A stretch of DNA of 64,000 nt from a virus (lineage: Duplodnaviria > Heunggongvirae > Uroviricota > Caudoviricetes), in the IMG/VR virus record IMGVR_UViG_3300008114_001632; one strand, 5' to 3'. The notes under the pieces were generated by a model. The model was not told the origin of the DNA. It worked only from the letters and a program-made list of their open reading frames with translations, and ran no database searches. Shown here one piece after another: positions 3,228 to 62,764 of the stretch; position 1 is the first letter of the stretch; every line of letters begins with the position of its first letter. A program made the translations under genes and the position numbers.

Positions 3228-4058
3228 TTAGCGCCAGTTGTCAACCACCCAAGGGTCTTCACAATTATGAGGATTTGGGTCTCCGTGAAATACTGTTACA
3301 CAACATTCAATCCTTGGTTTTACATCTTCTATCTGTTTAAATTTTCGATTTCCTTTAGTGCTGCCATAATCAAATTCTTTAGTACGTCTAACTTCCCATT
3401 TCCAACTTAGTATCCAACTGTCCGGATACAGCATTGCTTGATTTTTTTGTGTAGCTTCAAATAACCAATCTTGATCGCCATGTAGTCTTCTTTGAATATC
3501 GTGTTGATTTTCTCGGAATCCTGTCCAGACATAATCTAGCTGGCCAGTTTTAAATCGAACTACACTGCTATTATATTTTTTCCAACTTGGGCGCATAGCT
3601 CTGGTAAAATCTCTAATAGTACACCAGTGATTAGGTTGGTAGGTAAAAAGTTTATCTATATTACTTGCTATTACTACATCTAAATCCATGTAAAGTATTG
3701 TGCCATTAATAGGCAACTCTTTACTGTACATATAAGGTTTACACCACCATCCTTGTAAGTTGGCGGGCAAAGGTATTGTTTTTATTCTTGGATCTAGTCC
3801 ATTAGCGTTATCTGTTAAACAAACAAACTCGTAGTCTAAACTACAGTTTCTCTTAACCATGTTGTAGAGTTTGTTTACATATTCTGGACCGTATTTTGTG
3901 CCGTGTTTTAAACAAAGAAGATAATTTTTTAGACTATCTTCATGGGTAACTAAATTAGGCGTAATAATTTCTTGAGGCTTTTGTTTTTCTAAATGCCTCT
4001 GTTCTTTTATCTTACGCCATTCTTCTTTAGTATATTGACCTTTGTCAATCTTTGGCAA
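3228..4058 (-). CDS. putative nucleotide-sugar glycosyltransferase (DxD motif)
   Basis: YMDLDVV DxD-like motif; CLTDN; family assignment uncertain. Confidence 0.35.
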   Translation of the reverse strand: MPKIDKGQYTKEEWRKIKEQRHLEKQKPQEIITPNLVTHEDSLKNYLLCLKHGTKYGPEYVNKLYNMVKRNCSLDYEFVCLTDNANGLDPRIKTIPLPANLQGWWCKPYMYSKELPINGTILYMDLDVVIASNIDKLFTYQPNHWCTIRDFTRAMRPSWKKYNSSVVRFKTGQLDYVWTGFRENQHDIQRRLHGDQDWLFEATQKNQAMLYPDSWILSWKWEVRRTKEFDYGSTKGNRKFKQIEDVKPRIECCVTVFHGDPNPHNCEDPWVVDNWR

Positions 4059-4060
4059 TT

Positions 4061-4585
4061 TTAACCCTCATAAGTAGCAGAGTTACCAGCGTGTTCAAAC
4101 ACTTCAACTGAACGTAGACGAACACCAGCACCAACAGGATACCGTGCTTCAAATACTCTTCCGTCTGGATGAGTCCAAGCACGACCTTCTTTGTATGCTT
4201 CTAGTATTTCATTCATTGTGCGATATGCCAGTTCAGCAAATTTTTCGCATCCAACAGCTTCTACTAGACGCAAATCCAATACACCGCCTTCAGCTTGTTT
4301 ACCCAACTTAGCAAGTTCCTTAAACTTTGGGAGATGAGGATCATCTAAAGCCATAACAGTAGTGTGATCAAATTGCCATTCACTCCACTCTTTGAATGCT
4401 TTGAGTCCACCAAAGTCCATAACCCAGTTGCGATCATCTAGTGTTTTTGATTCAAAGATTAATTTGATACCAATTGAGTATCCGTGTAGTAACGAACAGT
4501 GTGAATGTGTACTACGCCATTGTCTAAAGCAACATGACAGACCTCTGTCATTGCCATAAGTTTTTGTTGAAAGATATTTTGCCAT
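4061..4585 (-). CDS. queD: 6-pyruvoyl-tetrahydropterin synthase / QueD-like
   Basis: C-x3-HG(Y) zinc/catalytic motif (HSHCSLLHGY), PTPS fold-like length. Start moved to the MAKYL ATG, which has a GGAG RBS. Confidence 0.65.
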   Translation of the reverse strand: MAKYLSTKTYGNDRGLSCCFRQWRSTHSHCSLLHGYSIGIKLIFESKTLDDRNWVMDFGGLKAFKEWSEWQFDHTTVMALDDPHLPKFKELAKLGKQAEGGVLDLRLVEAVGCEKFAELAYRTMNEILEAYKEGRAWTHPDGRVFEARYPVGAGVRLRSVEVFEHAGNSATYEG

Positions 4586-14744: not shown

Positions 14745-14821
14745 GCGACTCGTAGTAGAGTGGTCACTACACTTGGGACTGTAACCCAAGAAGCGGAGGT
14801 TCGAATCCCCCGGTCGCTCCA
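14745..14821 (+). tRNA. non-canonical tRNA-like gene (anticodon region xUGUx; possible Thr or pseudo-tRNA)
   Basis: GGTTCGAATCC T-loop and CCA; D-stem GTAG/CTAC. The acceptor and T stems conflict by 1 nt and position 33 is C, so this is a tentative call. Confidence 0.4.
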
Positions 14822-14845
14822 TAATATAAAATCATACACAGTTAA

Positions 14846-14921
14846 TGGTGCCGCCTCCCCGGATCGAACAGGGTTCCTCGGATTTTCAATCCGTTGCTAT
14901 GACCACATCAGCTAAAGCGGC
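14846..14921 (-). tRNA. tRNA-Phe(GAA)
   Basis: Hand-folded cloverleaf; anticodon loop TTGAAAA; CCA encoded. Confidence 0.75.
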
Positions 14922-15057
14922 AAAAATAAAATGTAGTAGGTTGAGACAAAACTCAATTAGTTTGCGTCACGATCTTTAACGACAGCGAGCTTATCTCTAT
15001 GAGACCTCTACTATCCGCAACACCTTTTACACAGCACCTAGCTGGTTACTACAAATT

Positions 15058-15131
15058 TGGGGTGAAGTCGGGAATCGAACCCTGGTCTACTGTTTCACAG
15101 ACAGTCGTGTTACCACTACACTAACAACACC
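15058..15131 (-). tRNA. tRNA-His(GUG) with G-1:C73
   Basis: Anticodon loop CTGTGAA; an extra 5' G pairs with C73; two U:U mismatches in the acceptor stem. Confidence 0.65.
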
Positions 15132-15137
15132 ATTGAT

Positions 15138-15212
15138 TGGCACCCCTGGATGGAATCGAACCACCGTCCCCACGTTCGTAGCATGGTATCCTATCCATTG
15201 AACGACAGGGGT
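15138..15212 (-). tRNA. tRNA-Arg(ACG)
   Basis: Anticodon loop CTACGAA. Confidence 0.7.
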
Positions 15213-15219
15213 ATATATT

Positions 15220-15294
15220 TGGCCGGCCCTGAGAGGATCGAACTCCCACCGTCGGTTTCGAAGACCGAAATGATATCCATTTCACCAAGGGCCG
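15220..15294 (-). tRNA. tRNA-Arg(UCG)
   Basis: Anticodon loop CTTCGAA; C1-G72. Confidence 0.65.
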
Positions 15295-15317
15295 TATTAC
15301 CATAGAAAAACACACTC

Positions 15318-15414
15318 GGCTCCCCTTACAACCTTGTTCCTGTCAATTCAGGATGAAACTGGATGAACCCAGAGGCTCCCCTTGGTTGTTTGTATCTGTC
15401 AATTCAGATTGAAA
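15318..15414. repeat. ~40-bp direct repeat, two copies (GGCTCCCCTT...CTGTCAATTCAG...GAAA)
   Basis: Copies at 15318-15357 and 15374-15414, lying between tRNA genes. Confidence 0.6.
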
Positions 15415-15427
15415 GTGTGTTTATCTA

Positions 15428-15503
15428 TGGTAGGAGCACCGGGACTCGAACCCGGAACTGGCAGATTAAAAGTCTGCTGTGATAACCATTTCACCATACT
15501 CCC
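15428..15503 (-). tRNA. tRNA-Lys(UUU)
   Basis: Anticodon loop CTTTTAA; perfect T stem. Confidence 0.75.
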
Positions 15504-15507
15504 GTAT

Positions 15508-15583
15508 TGGTCCACCCGGTGAGATTCGAACTCACACCTCATTGATTAAGAGTCAAGTGCGCTACCGTTAACGCTACAAGTGG
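15508..15583 (-). tRNA. tRNA-Lys(CUU) (tentative)
   Basis: Anticodon loop CTCTTAA; paralogous to the tRNA-Asn at 22008. Confidence 0.55.
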
Positions 15584-15757
15584 TTGGTCGTAATTAAATT
15601 GATTTAATGTGCCAACCAGGACCAATACGGGGTCAAGGTTGACACTAACGTTTACTTGAACGTTTCATGTCATTCTCCTATTTTAAATTTTTGTCAATAA
15701 AGTAAATTAAAGCTACTATCATAAGTAAAACTACGATCGCCCCATTTTGTTTTCTCC

Positions 15758-15949
15758 TTAATAAGATGCGTAATCACTAAACTTAGGAAACTCAAGACGA
15801 TCACGCTCAACTACCTTTATTTCATATTCATCTATATTGTCATCATAGAATTTAATCTTAAATGTGTCTTCGTCTATTTTTTCTAATATTTCGCAGTCGA
15901 CAAAATACGATCCGTACATACTAGTATCAAGATATCTAATCGTTGGCAT
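15758..15949 (-). CDS. hypothetical small protein
   Basis: AAGGAG RBS. Confidence 0.4.
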   Translation of the reverse strand: MPTIRYLDTSMYGSYFVDCEILEKIDEDTFKIKFYDDNIDEYEIKVVERDRLEFPKFSDYASY

Positions 15950-15967
15950 ATATTTCTCCTTTAAAGT

Positions 15968-16043
15968 TGGTAGTGATGGTCGGACTCGAACCGACGATAA
16001 ACTCCGTATGAAGGAGGTACATTAGCCGCTATGCTACATCACT
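15968..16043 (-). tRNA. tRNA-Met/Ile2(CAU)
   Basis: Anticodon loop TTCATAC. Confidence 0.7.
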
Positions 16044-16044
16044 A

Positions 16045-16118
16045 TGGCAGGGGTACTAGGGTTCGAACCTAGACTAACAGAGTCAAAGTCTGTGGTGCTA
16101 CCATTACACTATACCCCA
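16045..16118 (-). tRNA. tRNA-Gln(UUG)
   Basis: Anticodon loop CTTTGAC; U1:U72. Confidence 0.65.
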
Positions 16119-16240
16119 ATAAATTTGGCACTTCGTTAGCCACACCGCTTTGGACACGGATCTAGACCCCTGCTTCCACAGGACTTATAGGCTTCAATAC
16201 TACATTCCGCTACGAAGCCCGAGCGGATTGTTGCAGTAAC

Positions 16241-16318
16241 TGGAGCACAGGGTGAGATTCGAACTCACGGTTTTGCGGATTTGCAATCCACTGCATTGGG
16301 CCTCTCTGCCACCTGTGC
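16241..16318 (-). tRNA. tRNA-Cys(GCA)
   Basis: Anticodon loop TTGCAAA. Confidence 0.65.
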
Positions 16319-16325
16319 GTATTAC

Positions 16326-16400
16326 TGGCCTCGCCTACAGGAATCGAACCCATATTCGTAGGGTAGAAGCCTACTGTATTATCCATTATACTAAAGCGAG
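16326..16400 (-). tRNA. tRNA-Arg(UCU)
   Basis: Anticodon loop CTTCTAC. Confidence 0.7.
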
Positions 16401-16407
16401 TTATACT

Positions 16408-16481
16408 TGGCGTACCTCCAGGGACTCGAACCCCGACGAACAGTTTTGGAGACTGTGATGCTGCCATTACATTAGAGATAC
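16408..16481 (-). tRNA. tRNA-Trp(CCA)
   Basis: Anticodon loop CTCCAAA. Confidence 0.75.
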
Positions 16482-16488
16482 ATTAATT

Positions 16489-16563
16489 TGGTAGCCACGG
16501 ACAGTTTCGAAATGTCGACCTATCGCTTATCAAGCGAGTGCTCTTCCTCTGAGCTACGCGGCT
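16489..16563 (-). tRNA. tRNA-Ile(GAU)
   Basis: Anticodon loop TTGATAA; unusual T arm. Confidence 0.6.
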
Positions 16564-16568
16564 ATGTT

Positions 16569-16654
16569 TGGTGGAGATGACTGGAGTCGAACCAGTAGTG
16601 CCCGAAGGGCGGCGGATTTACAGTCCACTGGGGTTACCAATTTTCCTACATCTC
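16569..16654 (-). tRNA. tRNA-Tyr(GUA), long variable arm
   Basis: Anticodon loop CTGTAAA. Confidence 0.75.
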
Positions 16655-16714
16655 CAAACTTAGTGACACTCTCCGCTATGCTTTTAGACGCCGTCGCAGG
16701 GCGAATGAAGAGTG

Positions 16715-16794
16715 TGTAGTTAAGAACACTAATAACGCCTTTTACAAAGTTCTGGGCTATGAGTCCAGTCGTCCCTATAGTGTTCTTAACTACT
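16715..16794. repeat. 16-bp perfect inverted repeat (GTAGTTAAGAACACTA / TAGTGTTCTTAACTAC) with 46-nt loop
   Basis: Reverse-complementary arms at 16715-16731 and 16778-16794. Confidence 0.6.
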
Positions 16795-16899
16795 CTAGGA
16801 TTTTAACATCTGTGTTGTCGCCACAGACTTCATCCCCTAGGCCGCCCATTTGCTAGTTTAAAGTGATAGCAGGATCTCGTTTCCTATAGCACTAAAAGA

Positions 16900-16946
16900 A
16901 AAACCCCCGGAGTATTTTACATTCCGAGGGTCTTTTTGTTTTTTGA
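16900..16946. terminator. bidirectional rho-independent terminator
   Basis: CCCCCGGAG...TCCGAGGG hairpin flanked by an A-run and a T-run. Confidence 0.55.
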
Positions 16947-17095
16947 GCTGTTACTGGTTATGCGTAACTTGCTCCTACAGAAAGGCCCTCGCCTGGTAGT
17001 CGATACCAGCGAATGCAAAACATCTGATGTTTTCTAATTTGCTTAAACATTTTGATCATCTTTCTTTCTGTTAGTTAATTTCTTACTATGTGTAT

Positions 17096-17124
17096 AGTAT
17101 ACTGTATTTATTTATCTCTGTCAA
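17096..17124 (-). promoter_or_regulatory. sigma70-like promoter TTGACA-17-TATACT (minus)
   Basis: Hexamers with 17-nt spacer, upstream of the tRNA array. Confidence 0.55.
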
Positions 17125-17194
17125 GAGATTTTCTTTAAAAAGTGACAAAAATATTGTTGTATTTTTGCCACACTCTTGAATACGGAAACATTTC

Positions 17195-17269
17195 TGGTAC
17201 CTGGTCACGGTTTCGAACCGCGGACCTTCGCCGTGTAAAGGCGTTGCTCTACCCCTGAGCTAACCAGGC
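17195..17269 (-). tRNA. tRNA-Val(UAC)
   Basis: Anticodon loop TTTACAC. Confidence 0.7.
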
Positions 17270-17276
17270 AAATTCT

Positions 17277-17951
17277 TTAGTCCTTACGACCACCAAATAG
17301 TTGTAGTAACATTAAGAACAAGTTGATAAAGTCTAAGTACAAGCTAAGAGCGCCTGCAATTTCTGCCTTACCATCATTGTCGTAACTAACCATCTCACGA
17401 ATCTTTTGTGTGTCGTATGCTGTTAAGCCTAAGAACACAATAATTCCGATAGCACTAATGACCATTTGAAAAACTGTACTACCAATAAAAATATTGATTA
17501 TACTTGCAATAACAATCGCAATCAACCCAATGAACATAAATTGGCCAACTCCGTCCAAATTACGTTTAGTGAAGTAGCCATAGCCACTCATTGTAGCAAA
17601 TAGAACGGCAGCTCCCATGAATGCGCTTACAATGCTTCCCATGTTATATACTACAAAGATTGTAGCAAAACTTAGACCCATTAATGCGGCAAATCCATGT
17701 AAAAATAGCTGTAACGCACTCTTACTCATTTTGTCCATTGCAAAGCTAACGCCAAGAATGGCTACAAGCGGCGCAAAGATTACAAGCCATTTCATTGCGC
17801 CTGTAAAGAAAAATTCCATCAGCGTTGTATTTGATCCTACAAGATAACTTACAATCATTGATGTGATAACTGCCAGTGCCATATGTCCGTAAACACGGCC
17901 CATTGCACTATTAATCTGCGATGCAGAACGAAAAACACCTGTTGCATACAT
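17277..17951 (-). CDS. Bax-inhibitor-1 / YccA (TMBIM) family membrane protein
   Basis: 7-TM profile with BI-1 family conserved C-terminal region. Confidence 0.7.
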   Translation of the reverse strand: MYATGVFRSASQINSAMGRVYGHMALAVITSMIVSYLVGSNTTLMEFFFTGAMKWLVIFAPLVAILGVSFAMDKMSKSALQLFLHGFAALMGLSFATIFVVYNMGSIVSAFMGAAVLFATMSGYGYFTKRNLDGVGQFMFIGLIAIVIASIINIFIGSTVFQMVISAIGIIVFLGLTAYDTQKIREMVSYDNDGKAEIAGALSLYLDFINLFLMLLQLFGGRKD

Positions 17952-18597
17952 AAGTTTGTCTCCTTTGTAAGATTACTTATAAAAAAACGAAAGTTAGCAA
18001 GTAAGTAATGAACTGTGCAAGGTGCAAACGGGCTGAGGTTACTCTAGGCCCTAAGCAAATTACAATATGCAAAGCACAGTGGCTTGCGTATTTCCGAACA
18101 GCAAATCACAAGTTCGATAGATTCGGGGCATACAAACACGATCAGTTTTCAAGACTGATTGCCAGTATTGGAGTCATCGCATGAAGCGATAACGGTGTTC
18201 ATCCTCATCTCTCGCCTTCTTCCGGGTAGTTTACTGTTACCAGCATACTACCAAAACCTTATAGGTGCTCTCTGTTGGAATCGAACCAAACTGTTTAACT
18301 CCGTATCTTCCTTGCACGTTCAGCAGTTAGTCGACTTAGTACCTACTGGTGTTCTCAAGTGTAGTTAAACTTCAAAGAGCATTTATAAAGTGTCTAGCTA
18401 CTCACACCACATGAGCCCTAGACTGAGCGGTTACTCTGTCCATAACATTTATTCTTTTGGAAAGGTGCTAAACCTCACCTAATGCGTCCCCGGATTCCCT
18501 ACACGGGATCGGAAGGCCAATGCACTACACGCCTAGCACTCTTTATGGTGACTGCCCCACCCCCTGTGTATAACGGGCAAGGGAGCCCGGGTTTTCC

Positions 18598-19170
18598 TTA
18601 GATCAATTCTTCGTGCTTAAGAATGTCCACAGCCTTACCACTTAGGGCAATAGTTGTACGAACATTAAGCTCTAAGAGCTCGTCCTGCAATTTCTGCTTG
18701 GCCTTTTTGGCTTCTGCTACTTTTGCACGGAATGTATCTACATCTTTGCGAGTCAATACAGAAGTACTAACTTCATCACTGTGGCCGTACAAACTTGCAC
18801 GAGTGTCTTCTTTGCGGTTCCGAATTTTATTCAACTTGCCCTCAATGACTTGAGCAGACTCACGAACGTCATGAGCTGTTAGACCTGAAAAGAATTGGAT
18901 ATCTTTCTCAAGCTGAGCCAAGTCTGCCAACTTTTCATTGACACCTGCTTGTGCATTTGCACGGCTCACTGCCTTGCGAATTTCGTACAGCACATCTGTC
19001 AGTGCTACACGACGAAACACATTGCTGTTAAATTCCTGAGCAGCCTTAGATATTTCAGCTTCAGCCTCTTGGAACTCGTTGATGCGAATTGTTTGTGTCA
19101 ACGTGATACTTTTAACAGTATCGTTGATGCTGTTCTGAAGTGCGCTTGCTTTACGAAGTGTAAGTTCCAT
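18598..19170 (-). CDS. coiled-coil hypothetical protein
   Basis: 190-aa helical ORF; promoter-like element at 19199-19225. Confidence 0.4.
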   Translation of the reverse strand: MELTLRKASALQNSINDTVKSITLTQTIRINEFQEAEAEISKAAQEFNSNVFRRVALTDVLYEIRKAVSRANAQAGVNEKLADLAQLEKDIQFFSGLTAHDVRESAQVIEGKLNKIRNRKEDTRASLYGHSDEVSTSVLTRKDVDTFRAKVAEAKKAKQKLQDELLELNVRTTIALSGKAVDILKHEELI

Positions 19171-19240
19171 GTTTGTGTCCTTTTCTCTATGTGTTAATTG
19201 TATATGATTTGTGTCTACTTGTCAAGTATTTTTTAATGTC

Positions 19241-19330
19241 TGGCGGAAGCGGTGAGATTCGAACTCACGGACCCTTTCGAGTCTTTAGTTTTCAAGACTA
19301 ACGCAATAAGCCGGGCTCTGCCACGCTTCC
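19241..19330 (-). tRNA. tRNA-Ser(UGA), long variable arm
   Basis: Anticodon loop CTTGAAA. Confidence 0.7.
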
Positions 19331-19344
19331 TTTGAAAATAAAAC

Positions 19345-19423
19345 TGGTTGCGGAGGCAGGATTCGCACCTGCGATCTCTAGCTTATGAGACTAGCGAGGA
19401 CGACTGGACTCCTCTACTCCGCT
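19345..19423 (-). tRNA. tRNA(CAU) - Met or lysidine-Ile; atypical (A1:A72, T-loop TGCGAAT)
   Basis: Anticodon loop CTCATAA. Confidence 0.55.
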
Positions 19424-19619
19424 TCAAAATATTATACAGCTGACAACTCATTAGTACTTCCATCGTTATAAGCACCATTCACCCGAATTAACAAGCTCGA
19501 GCGGGACTCGGTACGTCACTTGGGATACTAGTCCAGTTAGCAACCAATCTGCGCCGATCTTCCGATCAGCCGGGAGTTGAACCCGTCCCCTTCTACTATA
19601 TCAGTCCTTCGAAGAAACC

Positions 19620-19648
19620 TTTATAGCGTGACATTCTCTTGCTGACAA
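19620..19648 (-). promoter_or_regulatory. sigma70-like promoter TTGTCA-17-TATAAA overlapping palindrome TGACAACGAATTGTCA
   Basis: Hexamers 17 nt apart; perfect 6-bp inverted repeat at 19643-19658. Confidence 0.4.
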
Positions 19649-19799
19649 CGAATTGTCATGTGCATAACATTTCTGCTATTCTGAAACACACTACGACATT
19701 GTTATACAACCAGCTCTAATTGCTGTTTGTGGTAATGTGTTTTAGAATAGTGTTAAGACTGAGATTACATCTTAACCATAAGCACCTCTAGCATTACCG

Positions 19800-20510
19800 T
19801 ACACCTTGCGAGTATACGTTCTCTAGACATCCACTAAGTCCATATCACTATGTAACCTAGTCTGCTTACAGTATCGCCGTTTTAAGTCAGGCAGTAGACT
19901 TGACGCCATATGCTATTCTACACCATCTATTCCGTTAACCTTGCGAGCTATTCGAGTGCGCTAACACCCTACGAAACTTCCAGTATAAACTAATGTTACC
20001 TTGCGAGCTTCATTAGACTTGATTGTGTTACCACTCAAGTATTAGATACTTTTCACATACGACCGAGGCAGTCTTTGCATTTTTGTTTAAATGATCGGAT
20101 TTGAACCGACAGCATTCTTCTTAACAGGAAGATGATCTACCATTGATCTACATTAACCTACCGCGATGAGCTGCCTCAGTTGCTTCATACTCTTTTGGAA
20201 TACAAAATACAACTCACCACATACCTTTTGCCTCGCGAGCTACTCAGTGATGTTTCACGATCGGTGTACTGTATTACTACAGCCCACTAACCATTTACAT
20301 TGTATACGAGCTCTTAGGTGCGACCCCTCGAACAAGTACACTACCCTTTCTCATACCAACTAACTGATTGGTTTTATATGGAAGTCAGCACCACCTGTTA
20401 CTTTTCACTGCCCCGTGTTCCTTGCGGCACGTCGAACAATGTTCTTTCCCATACATCAGCTTTGCTGTTACATCCACCGGTCTTATGAGTGAACGCTACC
20501 TCGCGGTAGT
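19800..20510. repeat. array of >=6 degenerate copies of motif (T)TACCTTGCGAG(C) in an ORF-free region
   Basis: Copies at 19801, 19935, 19995, 20229, 20416 and 20494, with diverged flanks. Confidence 0.55.
20086..20160 (-). pseudogene. degenerate tRNA-Asn(GUU)-like pseudogene
   Basis: D, anticodon (CTGTTAA) and T arms fold; acceptor stem 5/7; no CCA. Confidence 0.4.
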
Positions 20511-20650
20511 GAGCAGGCTTGTTTACGTGAACCATTGCTGGCGCTAGTATGTAGGCATTCTAGCTTTGGGTGTGTCGCCACACTTATTCTTTGTAAACGG
20601 CAAGCCGCCTACAGGATGATAAACCACCCTTAAATTCTTAACATGTGTCT

Positions 20651-20679
20651 ATTTTAGCAAATTTTTACTGTCTTGTCAA
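20651..20679 (-). promoter_or_regulatory. sigma70-like promoter TTGACA-17-TAAAAT reading into the ORF-free repeat region
   Basis: Hexamers with 17-nt spacer. Confidence 0.45.
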
Positions 20680-20708
20680 CATCTTTTTAAAAATATTTCT
20701 AAAACATT

Positions 20709-20782
20709 TGGAGCGGGTAGCGAGAATCGAACTCGCGAATAAACCTTGGCAAGGTTTCAGGTTACCATTACATCATACCCGC
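20709..20782 (-). tRNA. tRNA-Gly(GCC)
   Basis: Close to E. coli tRNA-Gly(GCC); anticodon loop TTGCCAA. Confidence 0.8.
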
Positions 20783-20787
20783 ATATT

Positions 20788-20862
20788 TGGTGGACCGTCG
20801 GGGGATCGAACCCCGACCTAAGCCTTGCAAAGGCCCCGTGCTCCCATTATCACTAACAGCCC
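20788..20862 (-). tRNA. tRNA-Ala(UGC)
   Basis: G3:U70 identity pair; anticodon loop TTTGCAA. Confidence 0.8.
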
Positions 20863-20868
20863 AAAAAA

Positions 20869-20946
20869 TGGTCGGAGTACAAGGATTCGAACCTTGGACC
20901 CCCTGGTCCCAAACCAGGTGCGCTAGCCAGACTGCGCCACACTCCG
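20869..20946 (-). tRNA. tRNA-Pro(UGG)
   Basis: C1-G72; loop TTTGGGA. Confidence 0.7.
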
Positions 20947-20947
20947 A

Positions 20948-21172
20948 TTATACTTTTCTTAGATACTCTCTACCAATTTTGCCTTCTTGAATTTCAAGCA
21001 GTGCAGAAACTGGCGCATTAACTTGGGTAGACATTTCGTCGTTCCTGTGTTTCCTTGCTATTTCTCTAGCTCTAACTGAAGCAATTAATACTAGATCAAA
21101 TCTACCACCAACATTTTCAACACATTTATTAGTATCAATAGTTGGACCACGACTTAAAGTTTTTGCTTTCAT
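20948..21172 (-). CDS. rpoZ: RNA polymerase omega subunit (RpoZ)-like protein
   Basis: GGRFDLVLIASVRAREI and LLEIQEG match E. coli omega GNRFDLVLVAARRARQ and ALREIEEG. Embedded in the tRNA operon. Confidence 0.6.
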   Translation of the reverse strand: MKAKTLSRGPTIDTNKCVENVGGRFDLVLIASVRAREIARKHRNDEMSTQVNAPVSALLEIQEGKIGREYLRKV

Positions 21173-21188
21173 ATCTACCTTTTAAAAT

Positions 21189-21262
21189 TGGAGCGGGATA
21201 TCAGAATCGAACTGATGACCGAAGATTGGAAATCTGCTGTTTTACCATTAAACTAATCCCGC
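21189..21262 (-). tRNA. tRNA-Gly(UCC)
   Basis: Anticodon loop TTTCCAA. Confidence 0.7.
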
Positions 21263-21273
21263 TTACTAACATT

Positions 21274-21356
21274 GGTGCCCCAGGTCGGACTCGAACCGAC
21301 ACGCCTTGCGGCACTGGCTTCTAAGACCAGCGTGGCTACCATTACACCACCGGGGC
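21274..21356 (-). tRNA. tRNA-Leu(UAG), long variable arm
   Basis: Anticodon loop CTTAGAA. Confidence 0.7.
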
Positions 21357-21370
21357 AAAAACTAACACTT

Positions 21371-21444
21371 TGGTGCCCCTACACAGAATCGAACTGCAAA
21401 CTACGGATTACAAAACCGTCGTTATACCATTTAACTATAAGGGC
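21371..21444 (-). tRNA. tRNA-Thr(UGU)
   Basis: Anticodon loop TTTGTAA. Confidence 0.7.
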
Positions 21445-21497
21445 AAAAACTTTCTATATTTTAATTGTACACTCTTTACAATCAAAGTCAACTAATA

Positions 21498-21574
21498 TGG
21501 CGCACCGTAGGGGACTCGAACCCCTGGCCTCTTGCGTGACAGGCAAGCGATCTAACCAACTGAGCTAACGGTGC
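21498..21574 (-). tRNA. tRNA-Asp(GUC)
   Basis: Anticodon loop CTGTCAC. Confidence 0.8.
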
Positions 21575-21829
21575 AAAATCTTTAATAAATTGTTTGAGGA
21601 AGTTCTTGACACGCATCACCAACTTGCGTCAAGACCTCATTACAGGCCTAGTAGTTCCGCCGCCTTCCTGGAGTTTGGAATAGTTCTTGCCCTTTGACTC
21701 GATGGTGTCTCGTCATACTCTAGAACCCTCCTGCTTCATGGGTATCAAGGCCGAGCATTTCTGCTACGCAATCACCTTTTCGTTCACCCCTAGCGGACTA
21801 GGTAACCTTAAACAACTTACTAAAAAACT

Positions 21830-21904
21830 TGGTACACGATACGAGAATCGAACTCGTCTTTCCGCCTTGAAAGGGCAGCGTCCTAACCGATAGACGAATC
21901 GTGC
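21830..21904 (-). tRNA. tRNA-Glu(UUC)
   Basis: Anticodon loop CTTTCAA. Confidence 0.7.
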
Positions 21905-21912
21905 ATTTAATT

Positions 21913-22002
21913 TGGCGGAGCGTCAGGGAGTCGAACCCTGTGACCCTTTTTACGTGATCTACGGTTTAGCAAACCGCTGCCTTACCATCCGGCCCACGCT
22001 CC
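21913..22002 (-). tRNA. tRNA-Ser(GCU), long variable arm
   Basis: Anticodon loop TTGCTAA. Confidence 0.7.
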
Positions 22003-22007
22003 TAAAT

Positions 22008-22083
22008 TGGCTCCTCAGCGTGGGATCGAACCACGGACACCTTGATTAACAGTCAAGTGCAACTACCGCTGTGCTACTGAGGA
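22008..22083 (-). tRNA. tRNA-Asn(GUU)
   Basis: Anticodon loop CTGTTAA; perfect acceptor stem. Confidence 0.8.
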
Positions 22084-22947: not shown

Positions 22948-23565
22948 TTATCGTTTCTCTACAACTTTATCTGCTAAACCGTAATCAACCGCTTCTTGTG
23001 CATTTAAGAAAGTATCAAATTTCATTGTTTCAAAAAGCTCATCGTATTGTTTGCCTTTGGTGTTGTGTTTGACATACAGCTCGGTTAATCGCTTGTTGAG
23101 TTTTTTACTTTCTTCCATTGAACGAATAGCATCTTCAAATTGAAGTTCTTGTACATGAACTGAACCACGTGTTCCAGGAGTACCTGAACTAACTCGATGT
23201 ATCATAGTACGGCTTTCAGGCAGTACTACTCGCTTACCTGCCGTGCCTGCTTGTGCTAGGAACGAGCCCATTGAACATGCCTGACCCATGACAATAGTAC
23301 GAATATCACATTTGATGTACTGCATTGTGTCGTAGATAGCTAGTCCTGCGGTAACTGCACCGCCAGGCGAATTAATATATAGGTTAATGTCTTTGTCTGG
23401 ATTCTCTGCTTCTAAAAATAATAACTGTGCTACAATTACATTAGCCATATTATCTTCTACAGGGCCGTTGAGCATAACAATTCGATCTTTGAGCAAGCGG
23501 CTGTAAATATCATATGAACGCTCGCCGCGAGTCTCTTGTTCAACAACCATTGGGATTAGTGGCAT
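22948..23565 (-). CDS. clpP: ATP-dependent Clp protease proteolytic subunit ClpP
   Basis: Full-length ClpP with the Ser-His-Asp region (GQACSMGSF...MIHRV). Confidence 0.9.
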
Positions 23566-42140: not shown

Positions 42141-44186
42141 TTATTTACTTGTCGCTATAAAAACGCCGTTCCAATCTTTAGGTAGAGTTTGAGTCTGCTG
42201 GAACTCACAACGCTCTATCCACATGTCGTAATACTTGTCCATTTTGCCGTCAAACTGACCTTTTAGTTGTTTACACATGCTAATAGCCGTACTAAACTTT
42301 TGTCCTCTGTATGCACCGTGCATTGATTCGTGTATTTTTTTAGCAACATGATACGTATCAGTGATATCATCTAATACTGTATAGATAGCAATTCCTACAC
42401 TCTTACCTTTTACAGCAAGATCATCAATCTTAAGGAAGAAGAAGTCATCTCCACAGCGATCAACTGTTGCGCCGCCAACTAGCAACAAGCATCCATACTC
42501 TTTACATTTACTTTCAATACGGGCAGCAGTACTAACAGCATCACCTAGTACATCGTAGCTGTGTCTTGCAGTTGATCCCATCTCTCCAATATATCCCAAC
42601 CCTGTATTAATACCAGCACCCATGCCAACGGCAGGTCTTCCTTGAGGTATAATGATTTCTTCATTAAATTTCTCCACTGCTTTAAGCATCTTCAATCCTG
42701 TGCGTACTGCTGTAGCAGGATGGTTCAAATCTTCAATAGGTGCATTATGTATATGCATACTAGCATCACCAATGTACTTAATAATCATACCGTCTGCATC
42801 TAGTACAGGTTGTGTAATGGCATCCATGTAGCCGTTCATTATTTTTGTAAGACCTGCAACGTCATCTCCAAAACTTTCACCTAAGGGTGTAAAGCCGCGT
42901 AAGTCTGAGAACAGTATACTGACTTCTTTCTTAACACCCTTCTTAATTAAGTCTGGATTTTCTTGTAACAGTCTAACTACTGTAGGGCTAGCATAGCCTG
43001 CAAATTGTTTCTTGATTGCTTGTTTCTGTAAGAACTCGCTTATAAACTTAATGCCATAAGCATGAAGCATAACCAGAACAAGCCCGACCACAATACCAGT
43101 TGAATCGAAGAGCCAACTAAACTGTGCATAAGCATAGGAGCCAGCGAATACACTAGTCCCAATAATAACAACACCTGAAATAATACCAACATAAGTCCAC
43201 CTTGTTAAGAATAATAATAGTATACCTGCTAATACTAGTGTTAAGATTTCTACACCGTTGGCATAATCTGGTCTCTGTATAACTATACCGTTAATCATTG
43301 TAGCAATAACACTAGCCTGCACAGCATGTGGGAATACAGCACCCATACTGGTTGGTACAGGATTACTGATACCAGCTGCGGTTGGACCAACAATAACAAT
43401 AGCACCATCTAGGTTTTTAGGCAACTCAAGTAAACTAACATTTTTACTTTGTTGACTCCAATCAATCCATACCCGACCTAAGTTATCTGTAGTAACAGGA
43501 CCAAACTTAGGTATACGCATTTTTTCAACACCGCCTTCAAAAAGTTTGATTTGAAAGGTTGAATCGCCAGCTGCTACTCGCAGTGTTTCCATAGCTATGC
43601 TAGGATAAAGTTTATCGCCAACTGCAACGATAAGAGGTAATCGACGATTCACTCCGTCAACTTCAGGCATAGTTGATACAATACCAATTCCTGCTGCTGA
43701 ATTTTCTAACTGCGGTACGTTAGCAATAAGGCCCGGGTATTGTACAATTTGATCTAACCACTCTGGCCCTAGTACAGCACTGCCTGGGTTGCGTGGTATA
43801 TTTTTAGTTTTATCAGCAGGCACTGATCCTAGTACTACAGGATATTGTTTAAGAGCTGAGGCAAGAGTTGAGTCGCCACCAGTGCGATCAGGCTCAGCCA
43901 TAAGCACATTGAGAACGACAAGGCCAGCACCACGATCATACAAATCTTTAATAATTTTAGCATATTCTGCCCTGGGTAATGGCCATTGGCCGTATTTGTC
44001 TAAAGCAGCTTCGTCTATGTTAACTGTATAGATGTTATTTTCTGTAGGTGCTTTAGAAGTAATTAATGTATCAAAGTAGCGTAGTCTTACACTTTCAACG
44101 AATGTAGGATCTGCTATTCGTATGCCTACTACTAACGCTAGAGTTAATAGAGCAGTCCATGGACTTAAAAGTATTTTTTTAATCAT
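42141..44186 (-). CDS. CHASE2 sensor-domain adenylate/guanylate cyclase (class III)
   Basis: N-terminal periplasmic domain plus TM helices. C-terminal cyclase block (FSDLRGFT...GDA, YDV.GD.V..A.R.E). Confidence 0.7.
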   Translation of the reverse strand: MIKKILLSPWTALLTLALVVGIRIADPTFVESVRLRYFDTLITSKAPTENNIYTVNIDEAALDKYGQWPLPRAEYAKIIKDLYDRGAGLVVLNVLMAEPDRTGGDSTLASALKQYPVVLGSVPADKTKNIPRNPGSAVLGPEWLDQIVQYPGLIANVPQLENSAAGIGIVSTMPEVDGVNRRLPLIVAVGDKLYPSIAMETLRVAAGDSTFQIKLFEGGVEKMRIPKFGPVTTDNLGRVWIDWSQQSKNVSLLELPKNLDGAIVIVGPTAAGISNPVPTSMGAVFPHAVQASVIATMINGIVIQRPDYANGVEILTLVLAGILLLFLTRWTYVGIISGVVIIGTSVFAGSYAYAQFSWLFDSTGIVVGLVLVMLHAYGIKFISEFLQKQAIKKQFAGYASPTVVRLLQENPDLIKKGVKKEVSILFSDLRGFTPLGESFGDDVAGLTKIMNGYMDAITQPVLDADGMIIKYIGDASMHIHNAPIEDLNHPATAVRTGLKMLKAVEKFNEEIIIPQGRPAVGMGAGINTGLGYIGEMGSTARHSYDVLGDAVSTAARIESKCKEYGCLLLVGGATVDRCGDDFFFLKIDDLAVKGKSVGIAIYTVLDDITDTYHVAKKIHESMHGAYRGQKFSTAISMCKQLKGQFDGKMDKYYDMWIERCEFQQTQTLPKDWNGVFIATSK

Positions 44187-47345: not shown

Positions 47346-48593
47346 TCATTTTGGTCTGTGTTCTGAAAGCACGTCAGCTCGCACATACCCCTTACGCTTC
47401 TCTGCGTCTACTACATAATGCCACCCCTCCGGACCTGGAGAAATGATATTAAATTCTGTTCCCTTTTTCAATTGCCATGTTCGTTGACTTTTTTCATTTG
47501 GTTCTTTGTATACAAACGAATCTTCTTTAAGATATCTAGAACTCCACAATTGAGCGGGTGGCTTAACTACTGGAGCAGTATTTGTATTTGTTTCTACTTT
47601 TTCTACAACTACTAAATGTTCTGGTTGTATAGGAACTATCCTTGTTATTTTTTCTGCTTTGGGCTCGACTGTTTGGCTTGCTCCATTGCTTTCTTGCTTG
47701 ACGGGCTCGATCGGTGCGGGTGGTAAGGGCTCTGGGGCTCCTTGGGGTGCTTGTGAGGTTTGTGGTTGAACCAGCTCATCTTTCTTTTCCTCCTTTACTA
47801 CAGGCACTTCTTGTGTTACAGATTTTTTAAATCTCCACATTCCTTTCTTTTCGCCTTCAATGATCATGTCATATACTGCTTGTTCTATAGCAACACGAAC
47901 AGCATATGTTGTAGGTTCATTTAGAGCCTGCCCGTTTTCTAATTCTAGTGCTTTGGTTCCAGCATCAACAAATCTTAATACGCCAACGTTATGTTGTGTG
48001 CTATAGATAGTTTTGCTCACAGCATTAGAAATTAATACTTCCCCACTGTTTACACTTACTAGTCTAAGACTAATTACAATTTCATCTACACGATATTGTT
48101 GACTTCCGCCAATACCTAAGAATCGTGCGCCGTTGCCGCCACTGCGTATGTTGCTGTCGTAGCCAATGATACCACCTTCGATCATAATTCCTGCCACAGT
48201 CATTGGCTTTAATGGTCTAGCATCTTTACCTTCATAAACCTCGCGTTGATTACGTATCAACTGTCGCTCTTTAATAAGGTTATCTAATCCCACACGCTCT
48301 ACAACTTTAAACCAATTTTTTGAGTCTTGAAGTGCTTTGATTAAAAATACTTCAGATCCTTGTGTCACTGCCTTTGAAAACACAGCTAACCTATCATTAG
48401 GTTTCATTTGTCCTGTCTTGTCTGTGAATCCGTAAACTGCAATGGTCATTGGAGGACCGTCTAACTGTGGTATTTTATTAGTAAGACTCTCTCTTGGTGT
48501 TAGAGCCACAGCATCTTCCCTAGCCGCATCCATGTGTATGGTGGCGCATCCTGAAAGAACAGTGACAAGTAACAATGATAATATTAATTTCAT
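47346..48593 (-). CDS. csgG: curli production assembly/transport lipoprotein CsgG
   Basis: LSGC lipobox; CsgG-family core. Confidence 0.75.
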   Translation of the reverse strand: MKLILSLLLVTVLSGCATIHMDAAREDAVALTPRESLTNKIPQLDGPPMTIAVYGFTDKTGQMKPNDRLAVFSKAVTQGSEVFLIKALQDSKNWFKVVERVGLDNLIKERQLIRNQREVYEGKDARPLKPMTVAGIMIEGGIIGYDSNIRSGGNGARFLGIGGSQQYRVDEIVISLRLVSVNSGEVLISNAVSKTIYSTQHNVGVLRFVDAGTKALELENGQALNEPTTYAVRVAIEQAVYDMIIEGEKKGMWRFKKSVTQEVPVVKEEKKDELVQPQTSQAPQGAPEPLPPAPIEPVKQESNGASQTVEPKAEKITRIVPIQPEHLVVVEKVETNTNTAPVVKPPAQLWSSRYLKEDSFVYKEPNEKSQRTWQLKKGTEFNIISPGPEGWHYVVDAEKRKGYVRADVLSEHRPK

Positions 48594-62735: not shown

Positions 62736-62737
62736 AG

Positions 62738-62764
62738 AAAAGCACCCGAGGGTGCTTTCTGGTA
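62738..62764. terminator. bidirectional terminator AAAGCACCCGAGGGTGCTTTCT
   Basis: Hairpin plus T-runs on both strands. Confidence 0.65.

What the first reader, a model, noticed from the sequence alone, without database searches (positions are those of the whole stretch)
19424..20700. 1.27-kb ORF-free region with degenerate TACCTTGCGAG motif array and a decayed tRNA-Asn
No ORF longer than 65 aa occurs on either strand. There are at least six diverged copies of (T)TACCTTGCGAG(C), each followed by partly related 20-40-nt tails, for example GCGAGCTATTCGAGTG versus GCGAGCTACTCAGTGA. A tRNA-Asn(GUU)-like pseudogene sits at 20086-20160 and a T-arm-like element at 19555-19580. Minus-strand promoters at both ends (20651-20679 and 19620-19648) point into it. 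It may be a graveyard of duplicated tRNA or small-RNA units, or an array of processed ncRNAs like the stable RNAs in T4 tRNA clusters.
Basis: seen in the sequence. Interest (0 to 1): 0.7.

Follow-up and report, generated by a model that had tools for sequence, protein, structure and literature searches.

The report
GOLLD RNA plus an unnamed partner RNA
The gene-free stretch is not a graveyard of dead tRNAs: it encodes a known giant phage RNA (GOLLD, which builds RNA-only cages) carrying a built-in tRNA-like module, followed by a second, apparently undescribed 218-base structured RNA that looks built to pair with copies of itself.

Summary
Window 19424-20700 holds two structured non-coding RNA genes on the minus strand, inside a 28-tRNA phage cluster.

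1. A GOLLD RNA of about 969 nt (about 20644-19676). It matches Rfam RF02032 at 201 bits against a threshold of 150, over the full model. It also has a 5' domain supported by covariation, a strong sigma-70-like promoter, and a clade-specific 3' hairpin.
   - The "TACCTTGCGAG repeats" are GNRA-tetraloop hairpins (CUCGCAAGG) of GOLLD. They are not duplicated units.
   - The "decayed tRNA-Asn" is a conserved tRNA-like module in the GOLLD linker. It is present in all 41 distinct relatives, and the anticodon is NUU in 39 of 41.
   - The module has a weak acceptor stem and no CCA, unlike the cluster's other tRNAs.

   - It matches no Rfam family, no cultured phage, and nothing in my literature searches.
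   - It has more than 80 distinct relatives in freshwater viral and metagenome contigs.
   - Covariation is strong: 95% of cells are paired, and 28 of 50 pairs show compensatory changes.
   - It has a permuted tRNA-like core resembling YrlA.
   - It has two self-complementary loops that change sequence but stay palindromic, which suggests self-association.

Verdict: GOLLD is a known kind. The partner RNA is the novel part.

The parts
20651..20679 (-). Sigma-70-type promoter in front of GOLLD: -35 TTGACA at 20679-20674, 17-nt spacer with a TG extension, -10 TAAAAT at 20656-20651. The inferred start is near 20644.
   Evidence: 11 of 12 matches. Conservation among relatives begins just downstream, at about 20640. 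L023, L030, L032 and L062 have TTGAC(T/A)-17-TA(T/C)AAT at the same place.
19676..20644 (-). Whole GOLLD RNA, about 969 nt: 5' domain, linker with a tRNA-like module, conserved 3' domain, and a clade-specific 3' hairpin.
20221..20644 (-). GOLLD 5' domain. The Rfam model does not cover it.
   Evidence: RNAalifold was run on 35 relatives over window 20158-20645. It predicted 129 pairs, 70 of them with compensatory changes, and a covariation term of -26.1 kcal/mol. The sequence does not align with the 5' domain of the cryo-EM reference env-38.
19756..20220 (-). The part matched by Rfam GOLLD (RF02032): last 5'-side hairpin, linker, and conserved 3' domain.
   Evidence: 201 bits against a gathering score of 150, E = 3e-55, model positions 1-416 of 416.
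20064..20178 (-). Linker loop closed by the helix UGAGGCAG (20178-20171) / CUGCCUCG (20071-20064). It encloses the tRNA-like module.
   Evidence: Read. The helix shows a compensatory change to GAGUCAG / CUGACUC in L023, L030, L032, L040 and L042.
20085..20157 (-). tRNA-like module with an Asn GUU anticodon, embedded in the GOLLD linker. The cloverleaf is intact. The acceptor stem has only 5 of 7 pairs. The discriminator is A. No CCA is encoded.
   Evidence: 57.4 bits. The module is present in all 41 distinct relatives, and its D, anticodon and T stems covary.
19804..19812 (-).
19939..19947 (-). GNRA tetraloop hairpin CUCGCAAGG, copy 2. It aligns to a tetraloop hairpin of the Rfam consensus (cggccGgaAgcUcg).
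19999..20007 (-). GNRA tetraloop hairpin CUCGCAAGG, copy 3. It aligns to the Rfam consensus ggcuCGCAAggcc.
20231..20239 (-). GCGA tetraloop hairpin CUCGCGAGG in the 5' domain, motif copy 4.
20420..20427 (-). GCAA tetraloop hairpin CCGCAAGG in the 5' domain, motif copy 5.
   Evidence: the stem covaries.
20496..20509 (-). GCGA tetraloop hairpin CUACC-GCGA-GGUAG in the 5' domain, motif copy 6.
   Evidence: Alignment columns 150-163 show 5 pairs, all with compensatory changes.
19676..19752 (-). Clade-specific 3' extension of GOLLD, beyond the Rfam and env-38 3' end. It is a 15-bp helix, CACUAUUCUAAAACACA (19752-19736) / UGUGUUUCAGAAUAG (19690-19676), around a variable insert.
   Evidence: One pair covaries perfectly (C-G 27, A-U 12, G.U 1). 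The A.C mismatch is G-C in 10 relatives. Insert length is 10-71 nt.
19441..19658 (-). Second, unnamed structured RNA of 218 nt, with helices P0 to P6.
   Evidence: No Rfam match. No blastn match in cultured phages.
19595..19627 (-). Hairpin P2 of the 218-nt RNA. Its palindromic loop UUCGAA lies at 19613-19608.
   Evidence: The loop is UUCGAA in 39 of 52 new members and in nearly all of the first 24; the variants found are other palindromes.
19553..19585 (-). tRNA-like minihelix of the 218-nt RNA: T-arm CGGG-UUCAACU-CCCG (19585-19571), stacked directly on a 7-bp acceptor-like hairpin capped by GGAA (19570-19553).
   Evidence: In the T stem, 1 of 4 pairs covaries and the other 3 are invariant. 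In the 7-bp helix, all 7 pairs show compensatory changes.
19482..19505 (-). Hairpin P5 of the 218-nt RNA (CCCG/CGGG). The self-complementary hexamer CUCGAG lies at 19501-19496.
   Evidence: A palindrome sits at this spot in 30 of 31 independent metagenome variants, with 9 different core hexamers.
19345..19423 (-). tRNA-Met, the next gene downstream (context). In L002 and L010 the orthologous tRNA-Met follows GOLLD directly.

Best explanation
The region encodes two structured non-coding RNAs on the minus strand of a phage tRNA cluster. The phage is a relative of Methylophilales phage Melnitz.

RNA 1 is a GOLLD RNA.
- It is transcribed from its own sigma-70-type promoter.
- No terminator-like site was found on that strand, so transcription probably reads on into RNA 2, tRNA-Met and tRNA-Ser. 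That precursor would be cut up by the tRNA-processing enzymes (inferred).
- By homology with the two GOLLD RNAs solved by cryo-EM, it is expected to fold into separate 5' and 3' domains. It should then self-assemble into a closed RNA-only multimeric cage held together by kissing loops and A-minor / tetraloop contacts.
- The six 'TACCTTGCGAG' copies are the GNRA-tetraloop hairpins that supply such contacts.
- The tRNA-Asn-like module sits in the linker, which in the solved structure points into the cage interior. It is a conserved part of the RNA, not a pseudogene.
- The weak acceptor stem, the missing CCA and the variable discriminator suggest that the module is mostly retained in the RNA, as cargo, a store or a mimic, and is not an ordinary released tRNA (inferred).

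RNA 2 is a separate 218-nt RNA.
- It is closed by a terminal helix and has a permuted tRNA-like core, in the order T-arm, then a 7-bp acceptor-like hairpin, then a D-like hairpin.
- It has two self-complementary loops.
- It is a member of a widespread freshwater-phage RNA family that has not been described.
For: GOLLD identity
- The Rfam RF02032 match is full length, 201 bits against a threshold of 150.
- The same architecture occurs in 10 of 13 related loci scanned with Rfam and in 77 held loci by nhmmer.

Boundaries
- Conservation starts sharply at about 20640, just after the -10 box.
- It ends at 19676, after a covarying 15-bp helix.

5' domain
- RNAalifold predicts 129 pairs, 70 of them with compensatory changes.

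Motif as GNRA hairpins
- This follows from the alignment to the Rfam consensus and from covarying stems.

tRNA-like module
- It is present in 41 of 41 distinct relatives at the same site, and its D, anticodon and T stems covary.
- ARAGORN's anticodon calls are GUU 19, UUU 6, CUU 3, AUU 1, GAU 1 and UCU 1. The 11 uncalled modules also read GUU or UUU.
- Acceptor stems have 7 of 7 pairs in only 4 of 41. None has CCA.
- Nearly all of the window's 26 free-standing tRNAs have 7 of 7 acceptor pairs (24 of 26 in the scripted register search) plus an encoded CCA. They include a canonical tRNA-Asn at 22008-22083.

Literature
- GOLLD forms 12- and 14-mer cages. The linker faces inward. tRNAs are sometimes found in the linker. 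GOLLD lies near phage tRNA arrays, and its expression rises during lysis (PMC12286853; PMC12990946).

RNA 2
-.

Strand
- Many G.U pairs support the minus strand.
Against: - There are no expression or processing data for this phage.
- Cage formation and stoichiometry are inferred from two distant homologues.
- The 5' domain cannot be aligned to env-38 by sequence, so its fold and its contacts may differ.
- L043 and L044 lack about 200 nt of the 5' domain, so the domain is not invariant.
- The module still has a good cloverleaf, so release as a working tRNA cannot be excluded.
- My literature and Rfam checks cannot prove that RNA 2 is undescribed.
Confidence: 0.9

Rival explanations
1. Graveyard model: the region is decaying debris of duplicated tRNA or small-RNA genes with no present function.
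For: - The short motif recurs.
- The embedded tRNA has acceptor mismatches and no CCA.
- There is no ORF.
Against: - The match to a curated RNA family is full length and above threshold.
- Column conservation is about 80-95% across 9 distinct relatives, with sharp boundaries.
- Compensatory changes occur in 70 pairs of the 5' domain.
- They also occur in 28 of 50 pairs of the 218-nt RNA.
- There are no long repeat units.
Confidence: 0.02
2. tRNA-precursor model: GOLLD here is chiefly a carrier or regulated store for a working tRNA-Asn. RNase P and 3' processing enzymes release the tRNA, the host enzyme adds CCA, and it is used in translation. This is the 'inhibited storage' idea of PMC12990946.
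For: - The cloverleaf is intact and scores 57.4 bits.
- The D, anticodon and T stems are kept by compensatory changes.
- The anticodon is conserved as NUU in 39 of 41 relatives.
- The literature raises this possibility.
Against: - Acceptor stems are imperfect in 37 of 41 relatives. In four of the 41 only four of the seven pairs form.
- None encodes CCA, although the cluster's free-standing tRNAs do.
- The discriminator is A, U, C or G with no pattern. The window's canonical tRNA-Asn has G73.
- The phage already has free-standing Asn GUU, Lys UUU and Lys CUU tRNAs.
- Some relatives have lost the D-loop GG and the standard T-loop.
Confidence: 0.25
3. The 218-nt element is a decayed tRNA, or a tRNA with an intron, left over after GOLLD. 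It is not an independent RNA.
For: - Relatives often have a tRNA directly after GOLLD.
- At relaxed thresholds ARAGORN proposes a 94-nt tRNA-like object at 19655-19562.
- The element contains a T-arm.
Against: - At default and intron-aware settings ARAGORN finds nothing.
- The same full-length 215-nt architecture recurs in more than 80 distinct sequences, flanked by intact tRNAs on both sides.
- It has its own terminal helix, P0, which is replaced in the window and in L128 by a different but complementary pair of strands.
- Its helices P5 and P6 have no counterpart in a tRNA, yet they covary.
Confidence: 0.03
4. The 218-nt RNA is a bacterial-type Y RNA (YrlA family) that works with a phage or host Ro60 (Rsr) protein. 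It does not self-associate.
For: - The permuted order of tRNA-like arms is the same as in YrlA: T, then an acceptor-like stem-loop, then D (PMC4201824).
- The acceptor-like stem has 7 bp, as in M. smegmatis YrlA.
- YrlA RNAs are known in phages.
Against: - No Rfam family matches at E <= 10.
- No TROVE-domain ORF was found among the 20 window ORFs scanned, which include every ORF of 350 aa or more.
- The GNCGAAN0-1G motif is not in the terminal stem.
- The RNA is twice the size of YrlA and has extra domains.
- A subgroup (L009, L105, L200) lacks the tRNA-like arms but keeps the rest.
- The palindromic loops are not explained by this model.
Confidence: 0.12

Closest known systems
GOLLD RNA (Rfam RF02032), with cryo-EM structures of env-38 (14-mer, PDB 9MEE) and Streptococcus agalactiae GOLLD (12-mer)
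   Same: - The covariance-model match to the conserved 3' domain is full length and above threshold.
- There is a large structured 5' domain.
- A variable linker lies between the two domains.
- The gene lies in a phage tRNA array.
- It has many GNRA-tetraloop hairpins.
   Different: - The 5' domain does not align with env-38 by sequence.
- There is an extra 15-bp 3' hairpin beyond the known 3' end.
- The linker always carries a tRNA-like module in this clade (41 of 41).
- The total length of about 969 nt exceeds the 833 nt of env-38.
- The oligomeric state is unknown.
Mycolicibacterium GOLLD with tRNA-Phe embedded in J13/15 (Morgado et al. 2020, as cited in PMC12990946)
   Same: A tRNA lies inside the single-stranded GOLLD linker.
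   Different: - Here the anticodon is NUU (Asn or Lys) and is conserved across the clade.
- The acceptor stem is systematically weak.
- No CCA is encoded.
Bacterial Y RNA YrlA (Chen et al. 2014, PMC4201824)
   Same: This comparison concerns the 218-nt RNA. It shares the tRNA mimicry with permuted connectivity: a T-arm, then an acceptor-like stem closed by a loop, then a D-like arm. The whole is closed by pairing of distal strands.
   Different: - There is no Rfam match, no nearby Ro60 gene, and no GNCGAAN0-1G stem motif.
- The RNA is about twice as long, with extra hairpins P2, P5 and P6.
- It has palindromic loops.
- It is located in tRNA arrays.
Symmetric kissing loops that covary as palindromes: OLE L9.3 and GOLLD L21a (Kretsch et al. 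2025, PMC12286853). The HIV-1 dimerisation initiation site is a further example, from my own knowledge.
   Same: The 218-nt RNA has loops whose sequence changes between relatives yet stays self-complementary, including at adjacent central nucleotides that cannot pair within one chain.
   Different: Self-association of the 218-nt RNA has not been shown. It has two such loops per molecule, so the stoichiometry is open.
T4 stable RNAs rnaC and rnaD (species 1 and 2) in the T4 tRNA cluster
   Same: They are small stable RNAs of unknown function, encoded among phage tRNA genes and released from tRNA precursors. rnaC ends with a T-arm-like hairpin.
   Different: They are not homologous. With filters off, the covariance model matches only the T-arm, at 6.3 bits.

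Membership tests
GOLLD RNA (RF02032) | Covariance-model score at or above the curated gathering score, over the whole model | tested here: met
   201 bits against 150, E = 3e-55, model positions 1-416 of 416, window 19756-20220 minus strand.
GOLLD RNA (RF02032) | A large, less conserved, structured 5' domain upstream of the conserved 3' domain | tested here: met
   About 420 nt (20644-20221) are conserved in 35 relatives, with 129 predicted pairs, 70 of them compensatory. Sequence homology to the env-38 5' domain was not detectable.
GOLLD RNA (RF02032) | A variable linker between the domains that can hold a tRNA | tested here: met
   The tRNA-like module at 20157-20085 lies in the model's linker region, between about model positions 62 and 110. 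The literature describes the linker.
GOLLD RNA (RF02032) | Encoded in phages or prophages, near tRNA arrays | tested here: met
   The window has 28 tRNAs at 14745-22083. Its proteins resemble those of Methylophilales phage Melnitz. The relatives are IMG/VR viral contigs.
GOLLD RNA (RF02032) | Self-assembly into a closed homo-oligomeric cage | not testable with these tools
   Known only for env-38 and S. agalactiae GOLLD. Testing it here needs cryo-EM or mass photometry of this RNA.
Canonical tRNA gene of this phage | Cloverleaf recognised by tRNA models | tested here: met
   ARAGORN calls Asn GUU, and the Rfam tRNA model gives 57.4 bits.
Canonical tRNA gene of this phage | Fully paired 7-bp acceptor stem and an encoded 3' CCA, as in the cluster's other tRNAs | tested here: not met
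   The acceptor stem has 5 of 7 pairs (G1.A72 and U3.U70 are mismatched). The 3' sequence reads A-CAA, not CCA. The other tRNAs are nearly all 7 of 7 with CCA.
YrlA / bacterial Y RNA (for the 218-nt RNA) | tRNA-like domain in the order T-arm, acceptor-like stem-loop, D-arm | tested here: met
   The T-arm and the 7-bp stem covary. The D-like 4-bp hairpin with a GG loop was read, e.g. GCAG/UUGC changing to GUAG/UUAC.
YrlA / bacterial Y RNA (for the 218-nt RNA) | Match to a curated Y RNA model | tested here: not met
   No Rfam family covers the element at E <= 10 in the window, or at E <= 1 in four other members.
YrlA / bacterial Y RNA (for the 218-nt RNA) | Encoded next to a Ro60 (TROVE) gene | tested here: inconclusive
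   No TROVE domain was found in the 20 window ORFs scanned, which include every ORF of 350 aa or more. The window is only part of the genome.
T4 rnaC / rnaD stable RNAs | Sequence and structure similarity to the T4 RNAs | tested here: not met
   Model R1 with filters off matches only the T-arm, at 6.3 bits.

The most novel reading that the evidence does not exclude
The 218-nt RNA at 19658-19441 founds an undescribed family of phage tRNA-array RNAs. It is a permuted tRNA mimic that self-associates through two self-complementary loops: UUCGAA in P2 and a variable palindrome in P5. It would form symmetric homodimers or larger RNA-only assemblies. That would make it a small companion to the GOLLD and ROOL cages, which are encoded in the same arrays.

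A further, weaker reading concerns GOLLD's caged tRNA-like module. Its anticodon is conserved as NUU (Asn or Lys). It could be a protected store or a decoy against host anticodon nucleases.
Probability: 0.45. Interest if true: 0.75.

Novelty: new member of a known kind. Interest (0 to 1): 0.5.

Why it matters
- GOLLD is one of very few natural RNAs known to build a protein-free cage, and its function is still unknown. This clade gives 41 natural variants in which a tRNA-like module with a conserved NUU anticodon is always present in the inward-facing linker. That makes the 'cargo / store / decoy' ideas directly testable.
- The clade also shows a 3' extension that is absent from the solved constructs.
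- The partner RNA may matter more. It is abundant in freshwater viral metagenomes and matches no Rfam family. Its covariation is very clean, and it carries the same 'palindrome that stays a palindrome' signature that revealed intermolecular contacts in OLE and GOLLD.
- If the partner RNA self-assembles, RNA-only quaternary structure would extend to a small, easily studied RNA, and phage tRNA arrays would stand out as a place where such RNAs collect.

Tried and rejected
- **blastn against cultured phages.** The region hit only tRNAs. The 218-nt RNA hit nothing.
- **Synteny with Melnitz.** The nearest cultured relative has no large tRNA cluster and no GOLLD motif at the corresponding place.
- **Low-threshold and intron-aware ARAGORN on 19400-19760.** Only weak calls were returned, with inconsistent anticodon assignments. 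I rejected them as evidence for a tRNA.
- **First hand reading of helix P1 of the 218-nt RNA.** Pairing the internal GUCAC with GUGAC was rejected because changes in L055, L096 and L078 are not compensated there. They are compensated with the 5'-terminal GUGUCA.
- **All-against-all covariation on the mixed alignment.** It was confounded by the two 3'-domain versions, so I analysed version A separately.
- **Genome-contig scan with a 17-base pattern.** It returned about the number of hits expected by chance. Only 5 of the 80 loci fetched were real by the covariance model.
- **T4 rnaC/rnaD homology.** None found.
- **Pairwise alignment to env-38 GOLLD from the paper's supplement.** The 5' domain does not align, so I could not transfer the helix names P1-P27 or check individual kissing loops.
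- **Weak Rfam hits in the region.** The manA, SAM-II and microRNA hits are chance matches.
- **Search for Ro60 or RtcB genes in the window.** None found.
Full report
**Context**

The window carries 28 tRNA genes between 14745 and 22083, 27 of them on the minus strand, and a permuted beta-type tmRNA at about 62.7-63.2 kb. Its proteins resemble those of Methylophilales phage Melnitz: a CHASE2-cyclase is 53% identical, and there are also CsgG, ClpP and a DNA ligase. The window therefore comes from a large aquatic myophage-like genome. The finding lies between tRNA-Gly (20709-20782) and tRNA-Met (19345-19423).

**Checking the observation**

- ORFs: no ORF above 65 aa overlaps the region.
- Motif: the exact 9-mer CTCGCAAGG (minus strand) occurs three times, all within 19804-20007, against 0.26 expected. 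The repeat finder gives one family of four 12-mers and nothing longer than 25 nt. At two mismatches the 11-mer is not enriched across the window.
- tRNA-Asn: it is at the stated place, but ARAGORN calls it normally and the Rfam tRNA model gives 57.4 bits.
- Promoters: the promoter at 20679-20651 is strong, 11 of 12 matches with a TG extension. The second proposed promoter was not returned by the scan.

**What the larger part is**

Rfam's GOLLD model (RF02032) matches 19756-20220 on the minus strand at 201 bits (threshold 150, E = 3e-55), covering the whole 416-position model.

I fetched relatives through the flanking 190-aa ORF. Rfam found GOLLD in 10 of 13 loci scanned. nhmmer found it in 77 held loci, giving 41 distinct sequences.

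The extent of the RNA follows from conservation:
- Aligning extended regions shows that conservation begins abruptly at about 20640, a few bases after the -10 box.
- Conservation continues past the Rfam 3' end to 19676.
- The upstream 420 nt form the GOLLD 5' domain. RNAalifold on 35 relatives gives 129 pairs, 70 of them with compensatory changes.
- The last 77 nt form a 15-bp helix (19752-19736 with 19690-19676) around a variable insert. One pair covaries perfectly (C-G 27, A-U 12, G.U 1), and the single A.C mismatch is G-C in ten relatives.
- The env-38 construct used for cryo-EM ends at the Rfam 3' end, so this hairpin is an addition in this clade.

The RNA is therefore about 969 nt long.

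**The repeated motif**

On the RNA strand the motif reads C-U-C-[GCAA]-G-G or its GCGA variant, a GNRA tetraloop on a short stem.
- Two of the three exact 3'-domain copies align to tetraloop hairpins of the Rfam consensus. The third lies in a hairpin insertion relative to the model.
- The three 5'-domain copies sit on stems that covary.
- GOLLD cages are held together by A-minor, tetraloop-receptor and kissing-loop contacts. That explains why such hairpins recur. They are functional modules of one RNA, not duplicated genes.

**The embedded tRNA**

The module lies in the linker, inside a loop closed by the helix UGAGGCAG/CUGCCUCG. That helix itself shows a compensatory change in relatives.

Evidence that it is conserved:
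- All 41 distinct relatives carry the module at the same site, with compensatory changes in the D, anticodon and T stems.
- The anticodon is N-U-U in 39 of 41. It is mostly GUU (Asn), sometimes UUU or CUU (Lys), once AUU, with single GAU and UCU exceptions.

Evidence that it is not an ordinary tRNA gene:
- The acceptor stem is fully paired in only 4 of 41. None encodes CCA, and the discriminator varies.
- The window's free-standing tRNAs are nearly all 7 of 7 with an encoded CCA. They include a canonical tRNA-Asn with G73.
- Some relatives have lost the D-loop GG and the standard T-loop.

So 'decayed' is wrong, but 'not an ordinary tRNA gene' is right. tRNAs in the GOLLD linker are already known, for example tRNA-Phe in Mycolicibacterium. 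I did not find the clade-wide NUU conservation or the systematically weakened acceptor end reported in the papers I read.

**The remaining 250 nt**

The alignment showed a block of about 210 nt, roughly 90% identical, always lying between tRNAs.

Distribution:
- A covariance model built from six copies found 25 full-length matches in the held loci, with E from 1e-77 to 1e-12.
- It found 5 more in freshwater MAG contigs.
These gave 52 distinct full-length members.
- No Rfam family covers the element. blastn finds nothing in cultured phages. Literature searches found no description.

Structure:
- The RNA is closed by a terminal helix, P0. Relatives use GUUUUGU.../...ACAAAUU with several compensatory variants. 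The window and L128 use a different but complementary pair, UGACAAUUC/GAGUUGUCA.
- On a structure-independent MAFFT alignment of 17 distinct version-A members, my hand-drawn structure has 95.1% of cells paired. Shuffles give 80.8% and slid controls give 32-47%.
- 28 of 50 pairs show double changes, and the covariation score is 0.394 against 0.143. None of 500 shuffles reaches the observed values.
- The core has a T-arm (YGGG-UUCRAYU-CCCR). A 7-bp hairpin capped by GGAA stacks directly on it, and all 7 of its pairs are compensatory. A 4-bp hairpin with a GG-containing loop follows.
- This order of T, acceptor-like and D arms matches bacterial YrlA Y RNAs. The other YrlA criteria are not met.

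**Self-complementary loops**

- The P2 loop is UUCGAA in nearly all members. The exceptions found are other palindromes: GGCC-centred in L105, and GCCGGC, ACUAGU and UGUACA in metagenome members. In L071 the loop is replaced by an intramolecular GUUCGA-AAG-UCGAAC hairpin.
- The P5 loop begins with a hexamer that differs between members but is palindromic in 29 of 30 members of the first set.
- In a test where the search pattern did not constrain the gap, the P5 hexamer was palindromic in 30 of 31 distinct metagenome variants. The nine cores were GCCGGC, CCCGGG, CUCGAG, CGGCCG, UCCGGA, GUCGAC, GCAUGC, CAGCUG and GCUAGC.
- The chance that a random hexamer is palindromic is 1 in 64.
- The central two nucleotides are adjacent and cannot pair within one chain. 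Kretsch et al. used the same argument for OLE L9.3 and GOLLD L21a.
- I infer intermolecular, symmetric pairing. This has not been shown.

**Relation of the two RNAs**

- In all 26 held loci that contain both RNAs, they lie on the same strand, 0.4-5 kb apart.
- 13 of the 80 short metagenome contigs also hold GOLLD. In L268 and L309 the small RNA follows GOLLD directly, as in the window.
- The loci were collected through one or the other RNA, so this is co-occurrence, not a measured association.

**Mechanism**

Shown:
- family membership of GOLLD;
- the boundaries;
- the secondary structures;
- conservation of the tRNA-like module;
- existence and structure of the second family.

Inferred:
- transcription from the 20679-20651 promoter, reading through to tRNA-Met and tRNA-Ser (no minus-strand terminator-like site);
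- processing by the tRNA enzymes;
- cage formation with the tRNA module inside;
- self-association of the 218-nt RNA.

The function of either RNA remains unknown. My best guess is that both are RNA-only assemblies serving the phage's tRNA economy or its defence against host nucleases that target tRNAs.

**Verdict**

The main object is an ordinary, though feature-rich, new member of a known family. The adjacent 218-nt RNA is the part that deserves follow-up.

Noticed in passing
window 62736-63172 (-): A permuted (two-piece type) betaproteobacterial tmRNA gene with tag peptide ANSSEYALAA lies in what looks like a phage genome. Relatives L023 and L030 carry one too. It hints at a betaproteobacterial host.
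   Followed up: partly
window 20948-21172 (-): A 74-aa ORF with an RNA polymerase omega / Rpb6 domain (PF01192, E = 1e-10) sits in the middle of the tRNA cluster, with its own promoter-like site at 20976-20947.
   Followed up: no
window 17277-17951, 22948-23565, 42141-44186, 47346-48593, 59156-61093 (all -): The window carries auxiliary genes that are unusual for a phage: a Bax1-I family membrane protein, ClpP protease, a CHASE2-adenylate/guanylate cyclase, a curli CsgG-SH3 protein, and a B12-binding radical SAM enzyme. There are also GMP reductase/IMPDH, UvdE and FecR-domain proteins.
   Followed up: partly
window 18598-19170 (-), and L002-L047: A 190-aa ORF with no Pfam match is conserved (44-82% identity) in 46 viral contigs, almost always beside a tRNA array. 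Its position relative to GOLLD varies, upstream or downstream.
   Followed up: partly
L043 about 3936-4496, and L044: These GOLLD genes lack about 200 nt of the 5' domain (equivalent to window 20472-20292) but keep the rest. This is a natural deletion variant that could show what the 5' cap contributes.
   Followed up: no
L023 8813-8889 and 613-701: ARAGORN calls a tRNA with a CUA anticodon (labelled Pyl, i.e. an amber suppressor) and a tRNA with a 2-base anticodon in a related phage tRNA array.
   Followed up: no
L184 1284-1422: A weak second match to the 218-nt RNA model (18.6 bits, E about 1e-4) lies 260 nt upstream of the full copy. It may be a diverged paralogue.
   Followed up: no
L009 1102-1294, L105 303-498, L200 2669-2868: A subgroup of the 218-nt RNA family replaces the T-arm and acceptor-like hairpin with a GGGGGGCGCRAAUCCCC hairpin and an A-rich stretch. 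It keeps P0, P1, P2, P5 and P6, so the tRNA-like core is not universal in the family.
   Followed up: partly
window 14745-22083: Nearly all free-standing tRNA genes of the cluster encode their 3' CCA. A weak plus-strand tRNA-Thr call at 14745-14821 (31 bits) sits at the edge of the cluster.
   Followed up: partly
L040, L060, L064, L090, L111 and others, about 50 nt upstream of the GOLLD 5' end: In many relatives GOLLD has no promoter of its own. It is preceded by a T-arm-like hairpin and a conserved AGUGUGCAGUUGUAUAAGAAUUU spacer without CCA. This suggests a tRNA-like element fused to the GOLLD 5' end.
   Followed up: no
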